Below are positions 5,405-43,419 of a stretch of DNA of 44,458 nucleotides, one piece after another. Position 1 is the first letter of the stretch. Each line of letters opens with the position of its first letter. Origin of the DNA: an uncultured delta proteobacterium (GTDB taxonomy: Bacteria > Desulfobacterota > Binatia > UBA9968); assembly GCA_963847445.1 (NCBI GenBank), contig CAWJZV010000001.1, positions 1 to 44,458 of the forward strand. Reading direction: 5' to 3'. The notes under the pieces are model-generated. The model was given only the letters and a program-made list of their open reading frames with translations, was not told where the DNA came from and did no database searches. The position numbers and the translations under genes were made by a program.

Positions 5405-5483
5405 CGTCATCCCGAACGAAGTGAGGGATCTCGATGTGCTGGCAGAATGTCAGTCTTGTCATTTCGAGCGCAGCGAGAAATCT
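5405..5483 (+). repeat. Two tandem YGTCAT-headed hairpin repeats (5405-5432, 5457-5483) directly upstream of the GIY-YIG gene
   Basis: CGTCATCCCGAACGAAGTGAGGGATCTC and TGTCATTTCGAGCGCAGCGAGAAATCT; the second abuts the ATG. Confidence 0.85.
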
Positions 5484-5757
5484 ATGCTGGCAGAGAACTG
5501 CTACTACGTCTATTTGCTGACCAGGAATAACAAAGTCATGTACGTCGGTGTAACCAATGATCTCACAAGGCGAGTTTACGAACATCAGAACAAGTTGTGA
5601 AAGGTTTCACGAGAAATACAACGTCAGCAAGTTGGTTTACTACGAACAAACTACTGACGTATTCAGCGCCCTGACTCGAGAAAAAGAGATGGCGCGGAAA
5701 AGAACGCTTGGTCATCAGCTCAATCCTCATTGGAATGATCTGAGTAATGCGATCTAG
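5484..5757 (+). CDS. Small stand-alone GIY-YIG nuclease (frameshifted near 5595 and probably near 5690)
   Basis: YYVYLL...VMYVGVTNDLTRRVYEH, then in the next frame KYNVSKLVYYE...ALTREK...NPHWNDL. Confidence 0.9.
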
Positions 5758-5782
5758 ATTTCTCCCTGCGGTCGAAATGACA
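5756..5782 (-). repeat. Inverted copy of the 27-bp repeat at 5457-5483, overlapping the GIY-YIG stop codon
   Basis: Reverse complement TGTCATTTCGACCGCAGGGAGAAATCT is 25/27 identical to the left copy. Confidence 0.9.
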
Positions 5783-6938: not shown

Positions 6939-7001
6939 TGAACTGTCGGATCCAAGGGCGGAGGTATTCAGGCTTCCTCGTTATTGGATTATTTCTTAGT
7001 T

Positions 7002-7086
7002 CCGTCATTCCGGCGGAGGCCGGAATCCAGGTTCATTCTGGTCCAGCGAATACGAAGATGGATGCCGGTTTTCACCGGCATGACGG
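7002..7086. repeat. CGTC-type REP inverted doublet
   Basis: CCGTCATTCCGGCGGAGGCCGGAATCCAG ... ATGGATGCCGGTTTTCACCGGCATGACGG; relatives at 10836, 29330 and 43220. Confidence 0.85.
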
Positions 7087-7107
7087 ATCTAACGGTTCCG
7101 ATGTCTG

Positions 7108-8057: not shown

Positions 8058-8100
8058 GTCGATCTCCGTATAAAACAGCTCGGCGTATAACATGAATGAT

Positions 8101-8173
8101 GGTTAGGGGTGAAGGGTAAAGGGTGAGGCGTCCGGTCCGGAATCGCTTTACCCCTTACACTTCACCCCTTACG
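8101..8173. repeat. Heptamer-periodic purine/pyrimidine foldback element (AGGGGTR units)
   Basis: GGTTAGGGGTGAAGGGTAAAGGGTGAGG-spacer-TTTACCCCTTACACTTCACCCCTTACG; inverted copy at 9183-9254. Confidence 0.85.
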
Positions 8174-9178: not shown

Positions 9179-9182
9179 GAAT

Positions 9183-9254
9183 CGTAAGGGGTGAAGGGTT
9201 AGGGGTAAAGCGTCTCGGACCGGACGCCTCACCCTTTACCCCTCACGCCTGACG
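9183..9254. repeat. Heptamer-periodic foldback element, inverted copy of 8101-8173, containing the MFS stop codon
   Basis: Shares the asymmetric spacer CGGACCGGACGCCTCACCCTTTACCC with the reverse complement of 8101-8173. Confidence 0.85.
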
Positions 9255-10597: not shown

Positions 10598-11053
10598 GAG
10601 GAAAGGAAGAGAGAGAGGAGAGGAGAGGAGAAAGGGAACTGGCCGCAAATGACGCCAAGTTCGCAAAGGAAGACATCGGATCTGCAAATCCCTGTGGTTG
10701 ACCATCCGAGTAAATTGAAGCAAATGGGGCGCGTTCGAATTAAGATCCCGAACCATCGTTCGGCGTGACAGCTATCTCCGCGACAGGTTGTCATTTCGAC
10801 TGGAAGGAGAAATCTATTCGATTCCGAATTCCCCGCCGTCATTCCCGCGCACGCGGGGATCCAGGTTTATTCCCATGAATCGAAGATGGATTCCTGTTGT
10901 CACGGGAATGACCGAATGAGGCTGCGGCGCGATGCGGGATTTGGTGCGAAGAGAGAAGTAAAGGTTACGAAGGATTAGATGGGTTCACCAAGAAGAGCAC
11001 ATCTGTTGGAATAATTTTCCGAACTTCGTGCTCTTAGTGTACTTCGTGAGCGA
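10598..11053. repeat. Cluster of mixed repeats: purine tract, CGCAAAG unit, 27-bp YGTCAT repeat (10789-10815), CGTC doublet (10836-10912), CACGAAG-type foldback (10985-11053)
   Basis: Most units match copies elsewhere in the window; no credible ORF. Confidence 0.8.
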
Positions 11054-12611: not shown

Positions 12612-12940
12612 CATGCACAACGAAGGACCTAGCGCGGCGAAGCCGCAACCGAAATCGGAATATCTCGCGCAAAGCACGCAAAGGGCGCAAAGGTAAGGGA
12701 GATATGTCATTTCGACCGAAGGGAGAAATCTTGCCGATACCCCTCGCATCCGATCGGGATGACCGGCCTCGGCCCGTCACTTTGCGATCTTGGCGTCCTT
12801 GGCGCGAGGAATATCCGAATCCGAAACGTCCTGGGCCAAGCAAATTTGCGCAAGCCGCGCTAATTTCGAACTTTAGCAATACGAAGAGCACGAAGTTCCG
12901 AGTGTTGATCATCCCCAACCTTCGTGCGCTTCGTGGTGCC
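12612..12940. repeat. Nested composite repeat: CGCAAAG foldback element containing a 27-bp YGTCAT repeat (12705-12731), followed by a CACGAAG foldback
   Basis: AGCCGCAACCGAAATCGGAATATCTCGCGCAAAG... / ...CTTTGCGATCTTGGCGTCCTTGGCGCGAG; related to 21640-21797. Confidence 0.8.
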
Positions 12941-15445: not shown

Positions 15446-16813
15446 ATGCCGAAAAAGCTTTTTATCCAGACCTACGGCTGCCAGATGAACCAATACGATT
15501 CGGAAAAAATCGCCCAGGTCCTGGCGCGCCGAGACTATGTCCGAACCGAGCGCATCGATGGCGCCGATGTGATCCTGCTCAACACTTGCAGCGTGCGCGA
15601 CAAGGCCGAACAAAAAGTTTACAGCGCGCTCGGTAGCTGGAAGGAATTCAAAAACTACCGCGACGGCGTAATCATCGGCGTCGGCGGTTGCGTCGCCCAA
15701 CAGGAAGGCGAAAATCTCTTAAAGCGCATCCCCCATTTAGATTTGGTTTTCGGCACCCACAACATTCATAAACTGCCGGAGATGATCGAGCAGGTGGAAA
15801 GCAGCCGGGCACGTCCGGTGGAGACCGCTTTCTACCGCGATCCGGCTTACATGGACGATGGCGAGCTGCGGACGCAAGTCGACGGCGTCAAGGCCTTTGT
15901 GACGATCATGCAAGGCTGCAACAAAGTGTGCAGCTTCTGTATCGTGCCCCATGTGCGCGGCCGCGAAGTGAGCCGGCCCAGCGCAAAAATTCTCGCTGAA
16001 ATAGAATCTCTGGCGCGCCACGGCGTCAAGGAAGTCATGCTGCTCGGCCAAAATGTCAATTCCTACGGCAAGCTCACGCCTGGCGAGCTGAGCTTTGCCG
16101 AGCTGCTCGCCCAGGTCGACCAGATCGCTGGCTTGCGACGCATTCGCTTTACCACTTCCCACCCGCAAGATTTGTCGCCCGAGCTGATCGAGGATTTCGC
16201 CACGTTGCAAAATTTATGCGAGCACCTGCATTTGCCGGTGCAGTCGGGTTCGGACACGGTCCTCGCGCGCATGCGCCGCGGTTATACCAAGGCGGAGTAT
16301 TTGGCCCGGCTCAATCGTCTGCGCCATCGTTGTCCGAAAGTGGCGCTGAGCACCGACATCATCGTCGGCTTTCCCGGCGAAACCAATGGCGAATTCGCCG
16401 AGACGCTAGAATTACTCCGCGCGGTGGAGTACGATGATATTTACTCGTTCACCTATTCGCCGCGGCCGCAAACCGTCTCCGCGAAAATTTATCCCGACGA
16501 TGTTCATGACGACGTGAAAAAAGAGCGTTTAAAAATCGTGCAAAAATTGCAGCGCGAAATATCTTTGGCGAAAAACCGCCAACGCATCGGCGACCGCGAA
16601 GAAGTTCTGGTCGAGGGAACGTCGAAACTAAAAGCCGAACAAATCATGGGCCGCACCCGCGCCAACCGTATCGTCAACCTCACCAGTTCTACCAGTTTGA
16701 TCGGTGAGTTCGTGCAAGTTCGGATTATCGGCGCCACCGCCAACTCATTGCTCGGCGAGTTGATGTGCGCTAATGCTGCATTAGAGTCCCAGCAAAAAGA
16801 GGATAGGCAATGA
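15446..16813 (+). CDS. miaB: tRNA-2-methylthio-N6-dimethylallyladenosine synthase MiaB
   Basis: TYGCQMN, NTCSVRDKAEQK, GCVAQQEG, CNKVCSFC radical-SAM motif, RFTTSHP, C-terminal TRAM domain. Confidence 0.95.
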   Translation: MPKKLFIQTYGCQMNQYDSEKIAQVLARRDYVRTERIDGADVILLNTCSVRDKAEQKVYSALGSWKEFKNYRDGVIIGVGGCVAQQEGENLLKRIPHLDLVFGTHNIHKLPEMIEQVESSRARPVETAFYRDPAYMDDGELRTQVDGVKAFVTIMQGCNKVCSFCIVPHVRGREVSRPSAKILAEIESLARHGVKEVMLLGQNVNSYGKLTPGELSFAELLAQVDQIAGLRRIRFTTSHPQDLSPELIEDFATLQNLCEHLHLPVQSGSDTVLARMRRGYTKAEYLARLNRLRHRCPKVALSTDIIVGFPGETNGEFAETLELLRAVEYDDIYSFTYSPRPQTVSAKIYPDDVHDDVKKERLKIVQKLQREISLAKNRQRIGDREEVLVEGTSKLKAEQIMGRTRANRIVNLTSSTSLIGEFVQVRIIGATANSLLGELMCANAALESQQKEDRQ

Positions 16814-17337
16814 GCAACAAATCAGAATGTATAGAGATGTCGGTCGGCGGTTTAACCCTCGACCCGGTGACCAAGACACCCATCGTGATCCTCAAAGACA
16901 GCGAAAACAAACTCAATCTGCCAATTTGGATTGGCCTCCTGGAGGCCACCGCCATGGCGACCGAGATTGAGGGCATAACCATGGCCCGGCCGATGACCCA
17001 CGATTTGCTCAAGACCTTATTGGGCGAGGTCGGCTGCTCGGTGCAGTCCATCGAGATCACCGAACTCAAAGAAAACACTTATTACGCGGCGATTAATCTA
17101 ACCCTGGCGGGCGGGCGCCCACTCATGCTTGACTCGCGCCCCAGCGATGCCATCGCATTGGCGCTACGCGCCAAATGTCCAATCTATGTCGCCAAGGCGG
17201 TGCTGGAAGCATCGAGCGTCTTGCAGCAGGACGAAACCAAAGACGTGCCGGTTGAGAACGTCTCCAACGTGTCCCAGGAAAAATGGGGCGAGATTCTCGA
17301 AAAAATGACGCCGGACGATTTCAAGTACAAGCAATAG
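16810..17337 (+). CDS. Bifunctional nuclease family protein (DUF151)
   Basis: LPIWIGLLEA, RPMTHDLL, DSRPSDAIALALR. Confidence 0.93.
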   Translation: MSNKSECIEMSVGGLTLDPVTKTPIVILKDSENKLNLPIWIGLLEATAMATEIEGITMARPMTHDLLKTLLGEVGCSVQSIEITELKENTYYAAINLTLAGGRPLMLDSRPSDAIALALRAKCPIYVAKAVLEASSVLQQDETKDVPVENVSNVSQEKWGEILEKMTPDDFKYKQ

Positions 17338-21639: not shown

Positions 21640-21797
21640 ATTTCACCACGGAACTCCGAGCACGACACAGCCGCAACCGAAATTCGGAATATCTCCCGCA
21701 AAGACGCTAAGCTCGCAAAGGTCGGAAAATAAGATGGTGCAACCGTTTTTAATAGTCCTATTTTTTTCCTTTCCGAACTTCGTGTCCTTCGTGGTAA
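21640..21797 (+). repeat. About 150-bp dispersed element (CGCAAAG/CACGAAG family)
   Basis: Close match to the reverse complement of 39925-40068. Confidence 0.85.
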
Positions 21798-21807
21798 GTA
21801 TTCCGGT

Positions 21808-22803
21808 TTACGGATTGCGGCCCCACAATTTCACGAAGAACCCTTCATCGACCAATTCTTGAACAAGACTGTTGTCGTAGAACTGGCCCGGCTTAGCTTG
21901 TTTCGCCTTGGGGTTGGTCCGGCCGATCTCATCGAGAGTTACCTGGAATCCAGCAGCTTTAACGAACGGGACCTTCTCCATAAACTCGTAGCCGTATTTC
22001 AAGCTGCCGTCGAGGATTCTTGGATCAGTGACCTTGGTGTATTTAGCGAATATCGTCTTCGTCTCGGCCGGTCGGTTGTAAATGAAATGCATCGCCTTGC
22101 CGTAGGCGCGCAAAAAAGCTTTCGCCGTTGGCCGCCTTTCTTTGACGAAGCGTTTGGTGGTCGTCAGAGTCAAGTGAACGAAGGGAATCTCATCCTTGGC
22201 GAGATTGGCCAGCACCTTTGCCCCTCCCTGTTCAGCGACATAGACCATCGGATAAGACATTGGCGCCGCCGCGATAATCTTCTTGGACAGCGCCGCGGCG
22301 ATCTCGGGCATGCCGCCGATTTGAATGAACGCTACATCCTTATGAGCTTCGAGCCCATGCTTCGCCAGAAACATGCGCATACCGAAGTCAGTGGCTGCGC
22401 CAAAACGCGAGACACCGATAGTTTTGCCTTTGAGGTCGGCGACGGTTTTTATCTCAGGCGTGGCCATAACATAGAAAGGCACGATATTCACCGTCGCCCC
22501 AATCGCCACCAAGTCGCCGCCTTGGAGCCCCGAGTCCGCAATCACCTGGCTATTTTGCGCGCTAATAACCACATCACCGGCCAGCGTCGCTTTCGCCGCC
22601 ACCGGTGAGCTGGCGATATACATGGTATCGACGTCCAAACCTTCTTCTTTGTAGAATCCTGCGTCGTTCATGATCCAAAACGGCGCATTGAACGCGCTCA
22701 CCGCAGTCCAGGCAATGACCAGCTTTTGAGCCTGAGCCGGCGCGATGCCGAGAGCGAGCAGCAGAAGTACGATCGCAACGCCAGCACGAACGCGATTGTC
22801 CAT
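21808..22803 (-). CDS. NMT1/THI5-like substrate-binding protein
   Basis: Signal peptide AQA-Q; GFYKEEGLD, DLKGKTIGVSRFG; close paralog of its upstream neighbour. Confidence 0.92.
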   Translation of the reverse strand: MDNRVRAGVAIVLLLLALGIAPAQAQKLVIAWTAVSAFNAPFWIMNDAGFYKEEGLDVDTMYIASSPVAAKATLAGDVVISAQNSQVIADSGLQGGDLVAIGATVNIVPFYVMATPEIKTVADLKGKTIGVSRFGAATDFGMRMFLAKHGLEAHKDVAFIQIGGMPEIAAALSKKIIAAAPMSYPMVYVAEQGGAKVLANLAKDEIPFVHLTLTTTKRFVKERRPTAKAFLRAYGKAMHFIYNRPAETKTIFAKYTKVTDPRILDGSLKYGYEFMEKVPFVKAAGFQVTLDEIGRTNPKAKQAKPGQFYDNSLVQELVDEGFFVKLWGRNP

Positions 22804-29329: not shown

Positions 29330-29568
29330 CGTCATTCCCGCGCAGGTGGAATCCAGGTGACGGACAGAGTCCGTCATACCGTTGAAAAACGGTATCCAGG
29401 TGGATGATGGCTCTGGATGCCGGCCTGCGCCGGCATGACGTGGCCCGGAGGCTCTTCATTGTGCATATCATCCCCTCACATGTATTTTCTAAGGAGCTCA
29501 CGTAGAGCACCAAGTTCGGAGTTTTGATCATCCGAAGCGTCCTGTCCGTTGTCTTCTTCGTGGTAAAT
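29330..29568. repeat. Three CGTC-type REP units (29330-29356, 29371-29399, inverted 29413-29440) plus a degenerate CACGAAG foldback (about 29490-29568)
   Basis: CGTCATTCCCGCGCAGG..., CCGTCATACCGTTGAAAAACGGTATCCAG, CTGGATGCCGGCCTGCGCCGGCATGACG. Confidence 0.82.
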
Positions 29569-29623
29569 CCGTCGTCAATTCCTCGCTTGGTGAAGATCTT
29601 ACTTCGGACACTTCCAGACATCG

Positions 29624-30660
29624 CTATTCGTACAGACTCTTGATGAACCCGCTATCTTCGATGGACTTGAGGATAGTCGGATCGCTGAACGACGCCGGGT
29701 CGGCAGATTTAGCTTTGGGAAACTCCTTGGCGATGGAGTCGAGCACGGTGCGAATGCCGCTCACGGAAGGATACGGCACGCGGTCGAAATAGGTGTTGGC
29801 ATACTGGTCGTAGGTGCGCTCGGCGTATTTCTCCTTGTCCGCCTCCATGCGCATTTTCTTCAGGATGATGCGGATGCTTTCCTTCTTGTTGCGCTTGAAA
29901 TAGGCGATCCCTTCGACGTAGGCGCGCATCACTCGAGTCGCCTGATCACGGTTGCCGCGCAGGTAGCCGCGCGTCGACACCAGCATGCTTTGCAGATAGT
30001 GAATGTTCATCTTGGCGAGATCCGCCAAAACGCGGAAGCCATTGTCTTCGGCGATGAAATAGGACGGGTCGGTCAGCACCGCGCCGTCGACGACTTTCTT
30101 TTGCAAGCTCACCAGCATGGTCGGCGACGAACCGATCTGCAAGACGTTCAAATCCTCCTGGCGCAGGTTCCAATGATTGAGCAAGAGGGTCAGAACCGTA
30201 TGGGATGCGGTGCCAAAGGCGGTAATGGCGATGCGCTTGCCTTTTAGGGCCTCTGGCGTATCGACATCCGGCCGCACCAGTAGCCGATGCACGCCTTTGT
30301 TGTTGAGCGCGGCGATCATCGTCACATCGCTGCCCTTGAGCATGGAGCTAATCACCGGCCCGCCGCTGGCGCTGGCGAACTGAATATCGCCCGCCAATAA
30401 GGCGTTAATGCCGCGTGCCGCCCCACCGCCGATGAAGATCGCCTCGACGTCGAGACCATGCTTTTTGAAAAAACCGCGTTCCTCGGCCACCCAGATCGCG
30501 CTATTGCTCGGGCTAAAAGCGCCCATGCCGATGCGAATCTTGTCCATGCGCTTGGGCGTATTCTGGCGGGCTGATGAAGAATACATTCACCACGAAGGAC
30601 ACGAAGAGCACGAAGGTCGGAAAATTACTTGACCGAAAACTTCGTGCTCGGGACCTATGG
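29624..30660 (-). CDS. NMT1/THI5-like substrate-binding protein; leader apparently in a shifted frame through a repeat, start uncertain
   Basis: Mature part MDKIRIG...WVAEERGFFKKHGLD...EDSGFIKSLYE; upstream frame reads FVLFVSFVVNVFFISPPEYAQA. Confidence 0.85.
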
Positions 30661-30818
30661 TGAGCGTAGGTTTGTAGGATGTGGTGACCAAAGGGAACCG
30701 CATCGTTGGTAAGTCGCATTCGTTCGATGCGGTTCGCGGACTCACCACATCCTACGGGTTTCGCCATTTTGATTTTCCGCAGGTGTGCGTAATCACATGA
30801 AACACTTCGTGGTGAAAA
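30586..30818. repeat. CACGAAG (9-nt period) foldback with a nested GTAG REP inverted doublet (30674-30755)
   Basis: TTCACCACGAAGGACACGAAGAGCACGAAG ... CTTCGTGGTGAAA; GTAGGATGTGGTGA...CCGCATCG / CGATGCGG...TCACCACATCCTAC. Confidence 0.85.
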
Positions 30819-30839
30819 TGAATTTGTCATCATAATTGA

Positions 30840-31538
30840 TCAACTCGGCCACTCGGCCAGCAGTTTGCCGTAACCTTGGATCGGCGCGCGGCGGCCCAAT
30901 TGCGAAAGTATCTCCCAGAGCATCGCCGGATTGCTGGCGATGGCGGTGATTTTTAAGTCGTTTTCGATCTGTTGCAACACCGGCAATGGATCGAGCACGG
31001 CGCCTTGAAAGTAGATGGCGTCGACAGAGCCGACTTCGGCCAACGCCTGTAGGGTGAGATCGTAGACCGCTGCGGCCCCAAACGGCCGGCCTCGCCGATA
31101 TTGGCGAAGGACTTAGGCGCGCGCACCGAGAAGCCGGCGTCGGTCAAATATTCTTCGATCATGCCGTTCAAGCGGGTCTCGAATGGCGTCAGCAGCAGCA
31201 GACGCCTGGCGTCGTACTGTTGCAACGCATGCACCGACGCCGTAAAGCGGTGGTCACGGGGATTTGCAGCGCCGCCTTGAGTTCGCGCGAACAGTCCGGG
31301 ATTCATCACCTCGGTGGGCGCGCCGATGAGAATGACCGCATGCCACTTCTTTGCAGCGGCAAGTTCACAGACACGGCGCACGACTTCCTGTTTCTTGCCG
31401 ATGATTTCGTAAAGCGATTGGCCGAATAGTCCCAAGCCGTGAAAGTCGAACTGCACAAAGTCCGGCACCAGCTTCATGAAAGCCGTCGTAATGCGGCCAG
31501 GTCGCCGGCCCAGGGCTGACGAATCCGATATTGAGCAA
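30840..31538 (-). CDS. AMDase / maleate isomerase fold protein, paralog of 7332-8057 (several frameshifts)
   Basis: GLGLFG, LLLLTPF, DAIYFQGAVLDPLP, IASNPAMLW, GYGKLL. Confidence 0.82.
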
Positions 31539-31655
31539 TAGAGATTTGATCGGTCAATTCCGTGTCTGTCACTAGTGAATCAATAGCATAGCGAGTCAAG
31601 AAAACCAGGTTCGGCGATGAGTTGTATTGTCGCTGAAGGCCGGGCTAAAGAGAGG

Positions 31656-37809: not shown

Positions 37810-38113
37810 CGGGGCAGTCGATCATGTGACATCGCGCGGAGACCGGCAGGAAACGATCTTTCGGACGACAATCAGATACCACGCAGCGTTTTTGAAACTG
37901 CTAGCGGGAAGTGGTTTTACGGTTTCGCTGGCGCTGTAATGCCTACTGCCTGATCGGGAACCATTACCACCTGATGATCAAAACCCCGGAAGCGAATCTG
38001 ACCAAAGGGATGAGGCAGATTAAACGGCAGTTAAACGGCGTGTTGCTCCCGAGATGGTCCAACCGGCGCCGCCAGCGCACCGGCCAGTTTACTTCAAGGC
38101 ACTACAAACACTG
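37809..38113 (+). pseudogene. Y1/HUH (IS200-like, RAYT-type) transposase remnant
   Basis: GAVDHVTSRGDRQETIF and RFRWRCNAYCLIGNHYHLMIKTPEANLTKGMRQ, SNRRRQRTGQ; no start and truncated. Confidence 0.82.
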
Positions 38114-39904: not shown

Positions 39905-40068
39905 TCTCGCCAAGGCGCAAAGCACGCCAAGTTCTGAAAGGAAAAAAATAGGACTCTTACAAACGGTCTTTACGATCTTATTTTCCGACCTTTGCGAGCT
40001 TAGCGCCTTTGCGGGAGATATTCCGAGTTTCGGTTGCGGGTGTGCCGCGCTCGGCTCTTTGTGGTTAA
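39905..40068 (-). repeat. About 150-bp dispersed element, inverted copy of 21640-21797
   Basis: Shared CCGCAACCGAAA-TCGGAATATCTCCCGCAAAG-CGCTAAGCTCGCAAAGGTCGGAAAATAAGAT...AGTCCTATTTTTTTCCTTTC. Confidence 0.85.
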
Positions 40069-43147: not shown

Positions 43148-43219
43148 ACTGAACGACCTTCGGTTATGGGCCCAGGCACTTTGCTCGCGACGACTAGAAG
43201 TCGGCTGGCTCTTTTTCAC

Positions 43220-43302
43220 CATTCCCGCGAAGGCGGAATCCAGGCTTTTTTTGAACTTGAAGCGAAGCCGAAGATGGATGCCGGCCTGCGCCGGCATGAC
43301 GG
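43220..43302. repeat. CGTC-type REP inverted doublet
   Basis: CATTCCCGCGAAGGCGGAATCCAG ... ATGGATGCCGGCCTGCGCCGGCATGACGG; right arm matches 29414-29440. Confidence 0.85.
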
Positions 43303-43419
43303 AACTCGTCAAACTTCACCACCAGTTAGAATGGCCAAGTGCCATCCAATGAAGTAGCCTTCACACAGCTGAGAATCTAGATCAGTAGTCTATAAAAATG
43401 CCTTCTCCGAGTTGTAAAC

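What the first reader, a model, noticed from the sequence alone, without database searches (positions are those of the whole stretch)
30540..30665. A palindromic repeat appears to encode the signal peptide of an SBP
Seen: the SBP at 29624 has no leader in its own frame. One base out of frame, the minus strand reads RSRARSFRSSNFPT-FVLFVSFVVNVFFI-SPPEYAQA, then one extra C, then MDKIRIG. That is a basic n-region, a hydrophobic h-region and the same AQA cleavage motif used by paralogs at 21808, 22803 and 40088. The core FVLFVSFVV is encoded by TTCGTGCTCTTCGTGTCCTTCGTGGTG, the 9-nt-period repeat arm found non-coding near 11020, 12920 and 21780. Inference: the repeat has been co-opted as a secretion signal, assuming the 1-nt shift is a read error like others here.
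Basis: partly seen in the sequence, partly recalled or inferred. Interest (0 to 1): 0.72.

Follow-up and report, generated by a model that had tools for sequence, protein, structure and literature searches.

The report
Palindromic repeat translated as signal peptide
A selfish hairpin-forming DNA repeat sits in frame at the start of a transporter binding-protein gene and very probably serves as its export signal, one arm giving the basic part and the other the greasy part; this is a well-supported new example of a phenomenon already described in other bacteria.

Summary
An NMT1-type binding-protein gene (29624-30547, minus strand) is preceded, one base out of frame, by an open frame that runs through a copy of a dispersed ~80-base palindromic repeat built of 9-base units.

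The extra base at 30547/30548 is most likely an error of this contig. It is missing from a 95%-identical sister contig of the same assembly, from contigs of 3 of 3 public runs that cover it, and from five related species. All of these read leader and mature protein in one frame.

In the compact orthologs the left arm is read as an Arg-rich n-region and the right arm as the Phe/Val h-region, followed by a small-x-small cleavage motif directly before the mature domain. More distant orthologs (85% and 77% identity) have ordinary, unrelated leaders. All seven repeat-bearing rows form one clade, and their mature parts are under strong purifying selection (dN/dS 0.03-0.13).

A second, unrelated exported-protein family in the same genus shows the same thing in three genomes.

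Export itself was not tested. [quoted passage not shown] This is therefore a new member of a known kind.

The parts
29624..30547 (-). Mature part of the NMT1/SsuA-type substrate-binding protein, plus stop codon
   Evidence: Pfam PF09084 E 1e-21. The mature start aligns with the residue after the cleavage motif of three paralogs. dN/dS against orthologs is 0.026-0.125.
30548..30548 (-). Extra base that separates the leader frame from the mature frame in this contig only
   Evidence: Absent from sister contig C37. One base is left out at 30547 (X2, X8) or 30548 (X1) in all 3 of 3 covering public runs. Five species have a continuous frame.
30549..30572 (-). c-region of the leader (8 codons), ending in Ala-x-Ala; lies outside the repeat's core
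   Evidence: Translation. Homologous in all six repeat-bearing genomes (alignment A2).
30573..30614 (-). h-region of the leader (14 codons). The first 9 codons are the right arm of the repeat; the last 5 come from its outer flank.
   Evidence: Best 11-residue Kyte-Doolittle mean is 2.63, within the range of ordinary leaders.
30586..30664 (-). This copy of the dispersed palindromic repeat: three 9-base units in the right arm, a loop, one intact unit and a decayed remainder in the left arm
   Evidence: Family listing with flanks. Inverted and direct repeat families. RNA fold -41.5 kcal/mol, z -3.28. 97% identical to the C37 copy.
30615..30656 (-). Basic stretch before the h-region (14 codons, 4 Arg, no acidic residue), coded by the loop and the proximal left arm
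   Evidence: Net charge +4 in the 20 residues before the hydrophobic core.
30674..30755 (-). A second, unrelated 82-base palindromic repeat nested in the leader ORF, in frame and without stops
   Evidence: 11 copies covering at least 80% of it at 87-100% identity in the assembly. High summed depth of public contigs over it. Absent from the G003, G014, G002 and G021 orthologs.
30805..30833 (-). Ancestral start codons (30833-30828) and the displaced outer end of the repeat's left arm (30816-30805)
   Evidence: The same start context and left-arm end lie directly next to the rest of the repeat in G014, G002, G003 and G021.
30549..30833 (-). Whole open leader frame of this genome (95 codons from the first ATG); which start codon is used is unknown
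   Evidence: Read in one frame with the mature part in C37, kept as P0006.
30840..31538 (-). Upstream gene (weak arylmalonate-decarboxylase-like matches), broken into several frames in this contig; its stop lies 6 bases before the leader's first ATG
   Evidence: Pfam PF17645, E 4e-5 and 8e-4, both below the curated cut-off. Intact over 244 residues in C37 but only residues 32-167 in one frame in C1. Indels at 31072, 31243, 31285 and 31482 are contradicted by public contigs.

Best explanation
A copy of a dispersed, roughly 80-base palindromic repeat was inserted into the 5' end of an ancestral binding-protein gene. Its arms are made of 9-base units whose constant heptamer is CACGAAG on one arm and CTTCGTG on the other. 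The repeat has since been translated as most of the protein's Sec-type signal peptide.

How the parts are read:
- The left arm gives an Arg-rich n-region in the frame used.
- The loop gives a short polar linker.
- The right arm gives a Phe/Val-rich h-region.
- The flank gives a c-region ending in a small-x-small signal-peptidase site, directly before the mature domain.

Because the unit is 9 bases (3 codons), gain or loss of units does not break the frame.

In the window's genome the leader was later lengthened by a second nested repeat. The single extra base that breaks the frame in this contig is an assembly error, probably a merged A/C strain polymorphism at the first mature codon.

Shown here: the anatomy, the continuous frame in every other copy, the clade distribution and purifying selection on the mature part.

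Inferred: that the leader is translated from an upstream start, that it directs export, and that it is cleaved at the proposed site.
For: (a) Frame. C37, 100% identical in the mature part, and G014, G002, G021, G003 and G010 all read leader and mature part in one frame. All 3 of 3 covering public runs leave out one base at 30547/30548. One restores an ATG codon and two restore a CTG codon, the two forms seen in the orthologs. C1 differs from C37 by dozens of scattered 1-nt indels. The upstream 244-residue gene is intact in C37 and three species but broken in C1.

(b) Anatomy. In G014 the 45-residue leader (P0005) contains the whole palindrome. Ten left-arm residues include 6 Arg, and nine right-arm residues are Phe, Val or Ile except one Ser.

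(c) Signal-peptide features. Across the 6 repeat leaders of this gene plus the window copy, the hydrophobic core scores 2.35-3.37, against 1.92-3.13 for 10 ordinary or other leaders. Net charge before the core is +3 to +7. Position -1 is Ala and -3 is Ala, Val or Thr. The site abuts the mature start defined by paralogs.

(d) History. The 85% and 77% orthologs have unrelated leaders of 24 and 22 residues. The seven repeat-bearing rows form one clade, support 81/94. Of the 114 of 120 listed public cluster representatives that have a called leader of at least 11 residues, the 15 that are 90% or more identical in the mature part have long leaders (median 43 residues) that by eye derive from the repeat. 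The 99 below 90% have ordinary ones (median 25 residues).

(e) The gene stayed functional. dN/dS is 0.026-0.125 at dS 0.19-0.98 among carriers. The three leader indels among carriers are -9, +24 and +123 bases, all multiples of 3.

(f) Start codon. The mature part has no usable start codon in G002 and G010 (CTG) or in G021 (CTC).

(g) Recurrence. A second family (P0007, no Pfam match) carries the same repeat in frame in its leader in G023, G009 and G008. Six other species have ordinary leaders of 26-30 residues.
Against: - No experiment and no trained predictor (SignalP) was available. The features were scored only with a hydropathy window, a charge count and the -3/-1 rule.
- The leaders are long: 43-54 residues in compact forms and 95 from the first ATG in this genome. 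The start codon is not established, and the internal candidates in the window lack an obvious ribosome-binding site (read by eye).
- In G014 the two arms form a near-perfect hairpin in the mRNA (-74.7 kcal/mol, z -6.06), beginning about 15 bases after the start codon. This could hinder translation.
- In the window's own assembly no other gene was found to use the repeat this way. Long open frames in the Phe/Val frame (36 of 150 codons or more) were not clearly more common than in the Leu/Arg frame (29), and on inspection were spurious or started later.
- A search of the large protein collection with the leader alone found nothing.
- The public runs may include the sample the window was assembled from, so they are not certainly independent.
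Confidence: 0.8

Rival explanations
1. The repeat-coded segment is translated and targets the protein to the membrane but is not cleaved. It acts as an N-terminal signal anchor that tethers the binding protein to the outer face of the membrane.
For: The uncharged hydrophobic run coded by the right arm and its flank is long, about 17 residues in the window and C37. This is at the upper end for a cleaved signal peptide. The c-region is 8 residues and contains two Pro and one acidic residue.
Against: A small-x-small motif sits exactly where paralogs and ordinary-leader orthologs end their leaders. It is kept in all six repeat-bearing genomes.
Confidence: 0.12
2. In this strain the extra base is real. 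The window copy is a recently inactivated pseudogene, disrupted at the leader/mature junction, while the sister copy is the working gene.
For: The base is in the assembled contig and is not in a homopolymer. The assembly holds a second copy of the region (C37), so one copy could decay.
Against: C1 and C37 differ by about 90 mostly single-base indels. These also break neighbouring genes that are intact in C37 and in other species. Public contigs 98-99% identical to C1 lack this base and four further C1 indels nearby. C37 is about 95% identical over more than 20 kb in the same order, and the assembly has 6.9% contamination. It therefore looks like a second strain, not a paralogous duplication. 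The mature part of C1 has no further defect.
Confidence: 0.08
3. The open frame through the repeat is incidental. Translation starts at or just after the mature N-terminus (ATG in this genome, or the conserved Met eight residues further on). The protein is then not exported through this leader, and the repeat is only a 5' untranslated hairpin.
For: An ATG begins the mature part in G000 and G003, and a Met eight residues later is conserved in all orthologs. Young repeat copies are open in this frame wherever they lie: most of the 269 matches in the genus are in short intergenic frames. One copy lies in frame upstream of a gene that has its own ordinary leader (L022).
Against: G002, G010 and G021 have CTG or CTC at the mature start. 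All three indels in the leader are multiples of 3, and the 123-base nested insert has no stop. Diverged leaders in 15 public relatives keep a basic-then-hydrophobic pattern and a cleavage-type motif while the repeat's DNA sequence decays. A periplasmic binding-protein family with ordinary leaders in all other members would lose function without export, yet dN/dS is 0.03-0.13.
Confidence: 0.07

Closest known systems
Yersinia RU-2 (YPAL) small mobile repeat forming part of the predicted signal peptide of YPO1552 (Delihas 2007, PMC2759123; also PMC2229807). Passages of both were read.
   Same: A palindromic, multi-copy intergenic repeat lies in frame at the 5' end of a gene. [quoted passage not shown]
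   Different: - Unrelated repeat family and phylum.
- Here the host gene is a well-defined family (NMT1 binding protein) with ordinary-leader orthologs in the same genus.
- The repeat supplies both the n- and h-regions from its two arms.
- The state is shared by at least six species and 15 public sequence clusters, under purifying selection.
- A second gene family shows it.
- The Yersinia case rested on SignalP; this one could not be run through SignalP.
Rickettsia palindromic elements (RPE; Ogata et al. 2000, not read itself; as summarised in passages of PMC10969869)
   Same: Selfish palindromic repeats inserted in frame into protein-coding genes that stay open and apparently functional.
   Different: - RPEs are about 150 bases and sit inside mature proteins of unrelated metabolic genes.
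- Here the repeat is about 80 bases, is built of 9-base tandem units, and sits in the disposable targeting peptide.
- No sequence relationship was tested.
REP/REPIN elements mobilised by RAYT (Y1) transposases (general knowledge, recalled)
   Same: Short dispersed hairpin-forming repeats, mostly intergenic, tens to hundreds of copies per genome. Y1-transposase homologs exist in this assembly.
   Different: No link between any Y1 transposase and this repeat was examined. The arms are tandem 9-base arrays, not a single REP. The nested second repeat (30674-30755) looks more REPIN-like than the first.
Pentamer coding repeats in the leader-peptide region of Neisseria opa genes
   Same: Tandem repeat units translated within a signal-peptide-coding region.
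   Different: The opa units are 5 bases, so copy-number change switches the frame (phase variation). Here the unit is 9 bases, so copy-number change (as in G021 and G010) keeps the frame and only alters leader length.

Membership tests
Sec-type signal peptide cleaved by signal peptidase I | Positively charged n-region | tested here: met
   Net charge +3 to +7 in the 20 residues before the hydrophobic core in the 6 repeat-coded leaders of this gene, and +4 in the window copy.
Sec-type signal peptide cleaved by signal peptidase I | Hydrophobic h-region | tested here: met
   Best 11-residue Kyte-Doolittle mean is 2.35-3.37. Ordinary or other leaders of orthologs of the two families score 1.92-3.13. 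The 15 public relatives score 2.35-3.35.
Sec-type signal peptide cleaved by signal peptidase I | Small uncharged residues at -3 and -1, directly before the mature domain | tested here: met
   Ala at -1 and Ala, Val or Thr at -3. The site abuts the mature start defined by alignment with paralogs.
Sec-type signal peptide cleaved by signal peptidase I | Call by a trained predictor; export and cleavage shown by experiment | not testable with these tools
   No SignalP or similar predictor and no experiment was available.
In-frame intragenic palindromic repeats (RPE-like, RU-2-like kind) | Multi-copy dispersed repeat that can form a hairpin | tested here: met
   183 arrays in the assembly and 49 full listings with both arms. 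Folds: z -6.06 for G014 and z -3.28 for the window.
In-frame intragenic palindromic repeats (RPE-like, RU-2-like kind) | Lies inside an ORF that stays open, and orthologs exist without it | tested here: met
   Open in C37 and 5 species. It is broken only in C1, by the disputed base. Orthologs in G008 and G019, and 99 public relatives, have no repeat-type leader.
In-frame intragenic palindromic repeats (RPE-like, RU-2-like kind) | Sequence homology to RPE or RU-2 themselves | not tested
   No RPE or RU-2 sequence was at hand. The claim is same kind, not same family.
MITE in the strict sense | Terminal inverted repeats with target-site duplication and a related autonomous element | not tested
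   No target-site duplication or parent element was looked for. Flanks vary and often adjoin other repeat families.
REP/REPIN with RAYT | A Y1 transposase gene flanked by, or associated with, the repeat | tested here: inconclusive
   Four PF01797 matches in the assembly, 3 over the cut-off, one of them a broken one in the window at 37854-38105. Their flanks were not examined.
NMT1/SsuA-type periplasmic substrate-binding protein | Match to the family profile over most of its length | tested here: met
   PF09084, E 1e-21, profile positions 5-214 of 216.
Tat (twin-arginine) signal peptide | Twin-arginine consensus followed by hydrophobic residues | tested here: inconclusive
   The left arm yields several Arg-Arg pairs. 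By eye, the residues after them do not follow the recalled consensus. No Tat predictor was available.

The most novel reading that the evidence does not exclude
The coding potential of this repeat family may not be an accident. A palindrome whose one arm reads as Arg or Lys in two of three frames and whose other arm reads as Phe-Val, with a 3-codon unit length and start codons in its outer ends, would be a ready-made, length-adjustable export cassette. On this reading, signal-peptide-coding 5' ends are its preferred safe harbour, and it repeatedly overwrites ancestral leaders. At least two gene families in this genus show this, and unchecked notes of this scan report look-alike cases in other phyla. 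Selfish repeats would then be a general source of new and exchangeable signal peptides in uncultured bacteria. The mRNA hairpin between the n- and h-region codons might also couple translation rate to export.
Probability: 0.2. Interest if true: 0.7.

Novelty: new member of a known kind. Interest (0 to 1): 0.45.

Why it matters
The case shows how a signal peptide can be replaced wholesale by a piece of selfish DNA and then kept for a long time. Synonymous divergence among carriers reaches about 1, while the mature protein stays under strong constraint.

Practical consequences:
- Gene callers mis-start such genes. Public records of close relatives begin anywhere from 18 to 58 residues before the mature part.
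- Repeat maskers would hide the leader.
- A single consensus error at such a junction makes an exported protein look leaderless.

For signal-peptide biology, the diverging repeat-derived leaders are a natural series. They show which features are kept while the DNA repeat decays: basic residues, then a hydrophobic core, then small-x-small.

Tried and rejected
(1) Genome-wide frame test in the window's assembly. There are 423 arms with up to 2 mismatches. Frames open for 150 codons or more downstream number 36 in the Phe/Val frame, 29 in the Leu/Arg frame and 10 in the third frame. On inspection, only the C37 copy of this gene (and the broken C1 copy) is a true fusion. The rest are chance matches inside genes, antisense frames, or genes that start later. 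So there is no general co-option in this genome.

(2) Search of the 5.8-billion-protein collection with the 45-residue leader alone. Two candidates were found and none scored. Exact look-up of P0005, P0006 and P0007 found none in the collection.

(3) Long open frames around repeat copies in other species of the genus. Of the 150 of 269 matches listed, 11 lie in frames of 300 residues or more:
- 4 are orthologs of this gene.
- 1 is the second family (G023).
- 1 (G021, L022) is in frame upstream of a gene that has its own ordinary leader.
- 4 are antisense or C-terminal chance frames.
- 1 (G007:C123, with a stop) was not examined.
Six further frames of 198-267 residues gave no convincing fusion.

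(4) Whether the G008 insertion in the second family is independent of the one in G023 and G009. The tree is an unresolved polytomy, so this cannot be told.

(5) RNA evidence.

(6) Run X4 did not cover the junction. Joints reported at 30621/30805, 30669/30845 and 30818/30586 involve the repeat itself and were not interpreted.

(7) A Tat reading of the Arg pairs was considered and left open.

The table was computed from stored files instead.

(9) Earlier notes of this scan on this genome and on this sequence: none.
Full report
WHAT IS THERE

The window is the whole of contig C1 of a 7.19-Mb, 48-contig assembly. On the minus strand, the ORF 29624-30586 encodes an NMT1/SsuA-type substrate-binding protein (PF09084, E 1e-21). 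Its first 13 residues are polar. Residue 14 onward aligns with the first mature residues of three paralogs in the window, each of which has an ordinary leader ending in the same Ala-x-Ala tripeptide.

- a stretch with four Arg;
- a 14-residue Phe/Val-rich core;
- eight further residues ending in that tripeptide, at 30549;
- one extra base (30548), and then the mature start.

The 27-mer that codes the core is at 30588-30614.

THE REPEAT

The core belongs to a dispersed palindrome. Its arms are tandem 9-base units, each a constant heptamer plus two variable bases: CACGAAG on the left arm and CTTCGTG on the right. The arms are separated by a loop of about 25 bases with a short inner stem.

Copy numbers:
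- The assembly holds 183 arrays of two or more exact units, 49 of them with three units. Most have the complementary arm alongside.
- With one mismatch allowed, the three-unit pattern matches 67 times in this genome. The backwards control matches 0 times.

The window copy spans about 30586-30664. Its right arm is intact, and its left arm keeps one unit and a decayed remainder. It still folds better than shuffles (z -3.28).

Distribution:
- A peptide reading of the repeat matches 269 times in 18 of 31 genomes of the genus, mostly in short frames.
- Three-unit arrays occur patchily in 11 of 201 sampled genomes of the phylum, with six or more copies in 7 of them.

THE EXTRA BASE

The assembly contains a second contig, C37, collinear with C1 over about 20 kb at 88.5-97% identity (mostly about 95%). 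The assembly is rated 6.9% contaminated, so C37 is most simply a second strain.

In C37 the mature part is 100% identical at the protein level, the extra base is absent, and leader and mature part are one frame.

C1 and C37 differ by about 90 mostly single-base indels that are not in homopolymers. The 244-residue gene just upstream is intact in C37 and in three other species, but in C1 only residues 32-167 lie in one frame.

Contigs of four public runs from four studies were laid on 29600-31600. Three cover the junction: X1 biofilter, X2 sediment, X8 soil. They are 98-99% identical there, and all three leave out one base.
- X1 leaves out 30548, which restores an ATG first mature codon as in C37.
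- X2 and X8 leave out 30547, which restores a CTG codon as in other species.
- X4 has no cover there.

Those of these runs that cover the sites (X1, and X2 up to 31285) also contradict C1 at 31072, 31243, 31285 and, in X1 alone, 31482.

The window's reading looks like both alleles of an A/C polymorphism merged into one consensus. One of these runs may be the source sample, so they are not certainly independent. X1's 1085-base contig bridges 29618-30698, so the repeat-in-leader arrangement is present there too.

ORTHOLOGS

Searching 40 relatives with the protein gave orthologs in eight other genomes. I read their 5' regions.

Repeat-bearing orthologs:
- G014 (96.7% identical in the mature part) and G002 (94.5%) have a 45-codon leader that starts at an ATG about 15 bases before the left arm and contains the whole palindrome. 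In G014, ten left-arm residues include six Arg. Nine right-arm residues are Phe, Val or Ile apart from one Ser. Then come 13 residues ending in Val-x-Ala (P0005).
- G021 (92.2%) has a decayed copy that is one unit shorter, with a GTG start (43 codons).
- G003 (96.5%) has a 24-base insert in the left arm (54 codons).
- G010 (94.8%) has a decayed right arm and an ATG in the former loop.
- G000 (both contigs) is like G003, with a further 123 bases in frame and without stops. These bases include a second, unrelated 82-base palindrome (30674-30755; 11 copies in the assembly). From the first ATG (30833) the leader is 95 codons (P0006).

All three length changes (-9, +24, +123) are multiples of three.

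Orthologs without the repeat:
- G008 (84.7%) and G019 (77.5%) have unrelated ordinary leaders of 24 and 22 residues and different upstream genes.

On a maximum-likelihood tree of the mature DNA, the seven repeat-bearing rows form one clade (support 81/94) and the two ordinary-leader rows lie outside it.

PUBLIC PROTEIN RECORDS

Of the 120 best cluster representatives, 114 have a called leader of at least 11 residues. The other six (P0036, P0115, P0122, P0124, P0125, P0126) are truncated and were dropped.
- The 15 that are 90% or more identical in the mature part have leaders of 18-58 residues (median 43).
- The 99 below 90% have leaders of 12-74 residues (median 25).

By eye, all 15 derive from the repeat in various states of decay, and several are cut short by the gene caller. 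A blastp-short test against the 28 repeat-coded residues flags only 5 of the 120 at E 1e-3 or better, so the count of 15 rests on my reading. Their hydrophobic cores score 2.35-3.35.

IS IT A SIGNAL PEPTIDE?

No predictor was available. A simple scoring, read from stored loci, gives:

| Feature | 6 repeat leaders of this gene | 10 ordinary or other leaders of the two families |
|---|---|---|
| Best 11-residue hydropathy | 2.35-3.37 (window copy 2.63) | 1.92-3.13 |
| Net charge in the 20 residues before the core | +3 to +7 | not comparable (see caveat) |
| Residue at -1 | Ala | not compiled |
| Residue at -3 | Ala, Val or Thr | not compiled |

For ordinary leaders, the charge count can include untranslated residues, a caveat.

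The site lies directly before the mature domain. The mature part has evolved under strong constraint among carriers (dN/dS 0.026-0.125 at dS 0.19-0.98). For a periplasmic binding protein this implies that export still works. G002 and G010 (CTG) and G021 (CTC) have no start codon at the mature N-terminus, so translation must begin upstream.

Points against:
- The leaders are long.
- The start codon is unproven in the window's genome.
- In G014 the arms form a near-perfect 30-bp hairpin in the mRNA (-74.7 kcal/mol, z -6.06).

A SECOND GENE FAMILY

One long open frame around a repeat copy in G023 turned out to be a different exported protein (P0007). It has no Pfam match and belongs to a family with hundreds of copies in the genus.

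Repeat-bearing orthologs:
- G023: the repeat lies in frame between the ancestral ATG and a c-region ending in Ala-x-Ala. The leader is 56 residues from that ATG, and an ATG in the loop would give 26.
- G009: the same, with two nested inserts, still open (70 residues).
- G008: a repeat copy read in another left-arm frame and a decayed right arm (46 residues).

Orthologs without it:
- Six other species have ordinary leaders of 26-30 residues.
- Two (G003, G022) carry a different small palindrome in frame in the n-region.

dN/dS is 0.04-0.07. The tree does not resolve whether G008 is an independent event. The genus therefore shows at least two acquisitions, one per family.

WHAT DID NOT SHOW IT

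- In the window's own assembly no other gene uses the repeat this way, and the Phe/Val frame is not clearly over-represented among long frames.
- Among other long frames in the genus, one copy lies in frame upstream of a gene that has its own leader (L022). The others are chance or antisense frames.
- The leader alone found nothing in the protein collection.

MECHANISM, AS FAR AS SHOWN

The palindrome's composition explains the fit:
- The purine-rich heptamer reads as Arg-Arg/Ser or Thr-Lys in two of its three frames.
- Its complement reads as Phe-Val in one frame.
- The consensus loop length puts an Arg frame and the Phe-Val frame in phase.

The 9-base unit makes copy-number change frame-neutral. 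The outer ends of many copies carry ATG or GTG a few codons before the left arm. These points are read from the sequences. That they matter for spread is inference.

COMPARISON WITH WHAT IS KNOWN

In-frame palindromic repeats are known from Rickettsia (RPE; passages of the review PMC10969869; the original 2000 paper was not read). That review has no occurrence of the words 'signal peptide'.

Delihas (2007, PMC2759123; passages; also PMC2229807) described in silico a Yersinia repeat, RU-2, that forms part of the predicted signal peptide of YPO1552. Homologs in other genera have unrelated signal sequences. This is the same kind of event.

My four searches turned up no other printed case, and none for this repeat family. 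Subscription journals are largely outside the library searched.

Unchecked notes of this scan report look-alike cases in at least eight other genomes of several phyla. They are leads, not evidence, but they lower the claim to novelty.

VERDICT

By kind it is a new, unusually well-documented member of a known phenomenon.

The unpublished genome G005 enters only the tallies.

Noticed in passing
window 10718-32376 versus contig C37 of the same assembly: C37 is a second, 88.5-97% identical (mostly about 95%) collinear copy of about 20 kb of this contig. It differs by about 90 mostly single-base indels. Several C1 genes are split into consecutive frames (for example around 16100-17240 and 31070-31580). 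C1 looks like a poorly polished consensus, perhaps of mixed strains.
   Followed up: partly
window 30674-30755: An 82-base palindrome of a different repeat family is nested inside the leader ORF, in frame and without stops. It has 11 copies at 87-100% identity in the assembly and begins with the tetranucleotide typical of REP heads (the latter is recalled).
   Followed up: partly
whole assembly G000 and genus: There is an extreme expansion of orphan binding proteins. At least 150 matches to this NMT1-type protein at E 1e-20 or better occur in one genome. The second family, P0007, has no Pfam match, with 26 matches at E 1e-60 or better in G000 and hundreds in the genus. No permease or ATPase gene for it lies beside the gene studied.
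   Followed up: no
window 10644-10671, 12668-12695, 21696-21732, 39916-39943: A sister repeat has the same 9-base period but a different heptamer (direct-repeat family D6). That heptamer is about three times over-represented in the genome.
   Followed up: no
window 21642-21738 and 39972-40068; also 21742-21789 and 39920-39967: Two long inverted matches (97 and 48 bases, 88% complementary) lie just past the 3' ends of two paralogous binding-protein genes. They look like composite clusters of several repeat families.
   Followed up: no
window 6998-7090, 10837-10918, 29330-29445, 43217-43306; 5457-5484, 5755-5782, 10789-10825, 12705-12741; 8099-8173, 9181-9253: At least three further families of short hairpin repeats fill the intergenic spaces of this contig (families D3, D14, I6; D10, I9, I10; D7, I4, I8).
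   Followed up: no
window 37854-38105 (+): A weak match to the Y1 transposase family (PF01797, 23.6 bits) is interrupted by two stops. Two better copies lie elsewhere in the assembly (C2:49291-49620, C7:138324-138647). They are possible mobilisers of the hairpin repeats.
   Followed up: no
L037 (G003) and L039 (G022), about 60-110 bases before the mature start of the P0007 ortholog: A different small GC-rich palindrome sits in frame in the n-region of the leader of the second gene family. The leader region of one gene has therefore taken up at least two kinds of repeat in different species.
   Followed up: no
L022 (G021:C191), about 90 bases before the start of another NMT1-type gene: A full repeat copy lies in the productive frame, with no stop before a gene that has its own ordinary leader and start codon. 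This may be a pre-adapted state, or chance.
   Followed up: no
L003 (G010), upstream of the ortholog: The upstream decarboxylase-like gene appears reduced to its first few codons, which are joined to another repeat family. This suggests a repeat-associated deletion.
   Followed up: no
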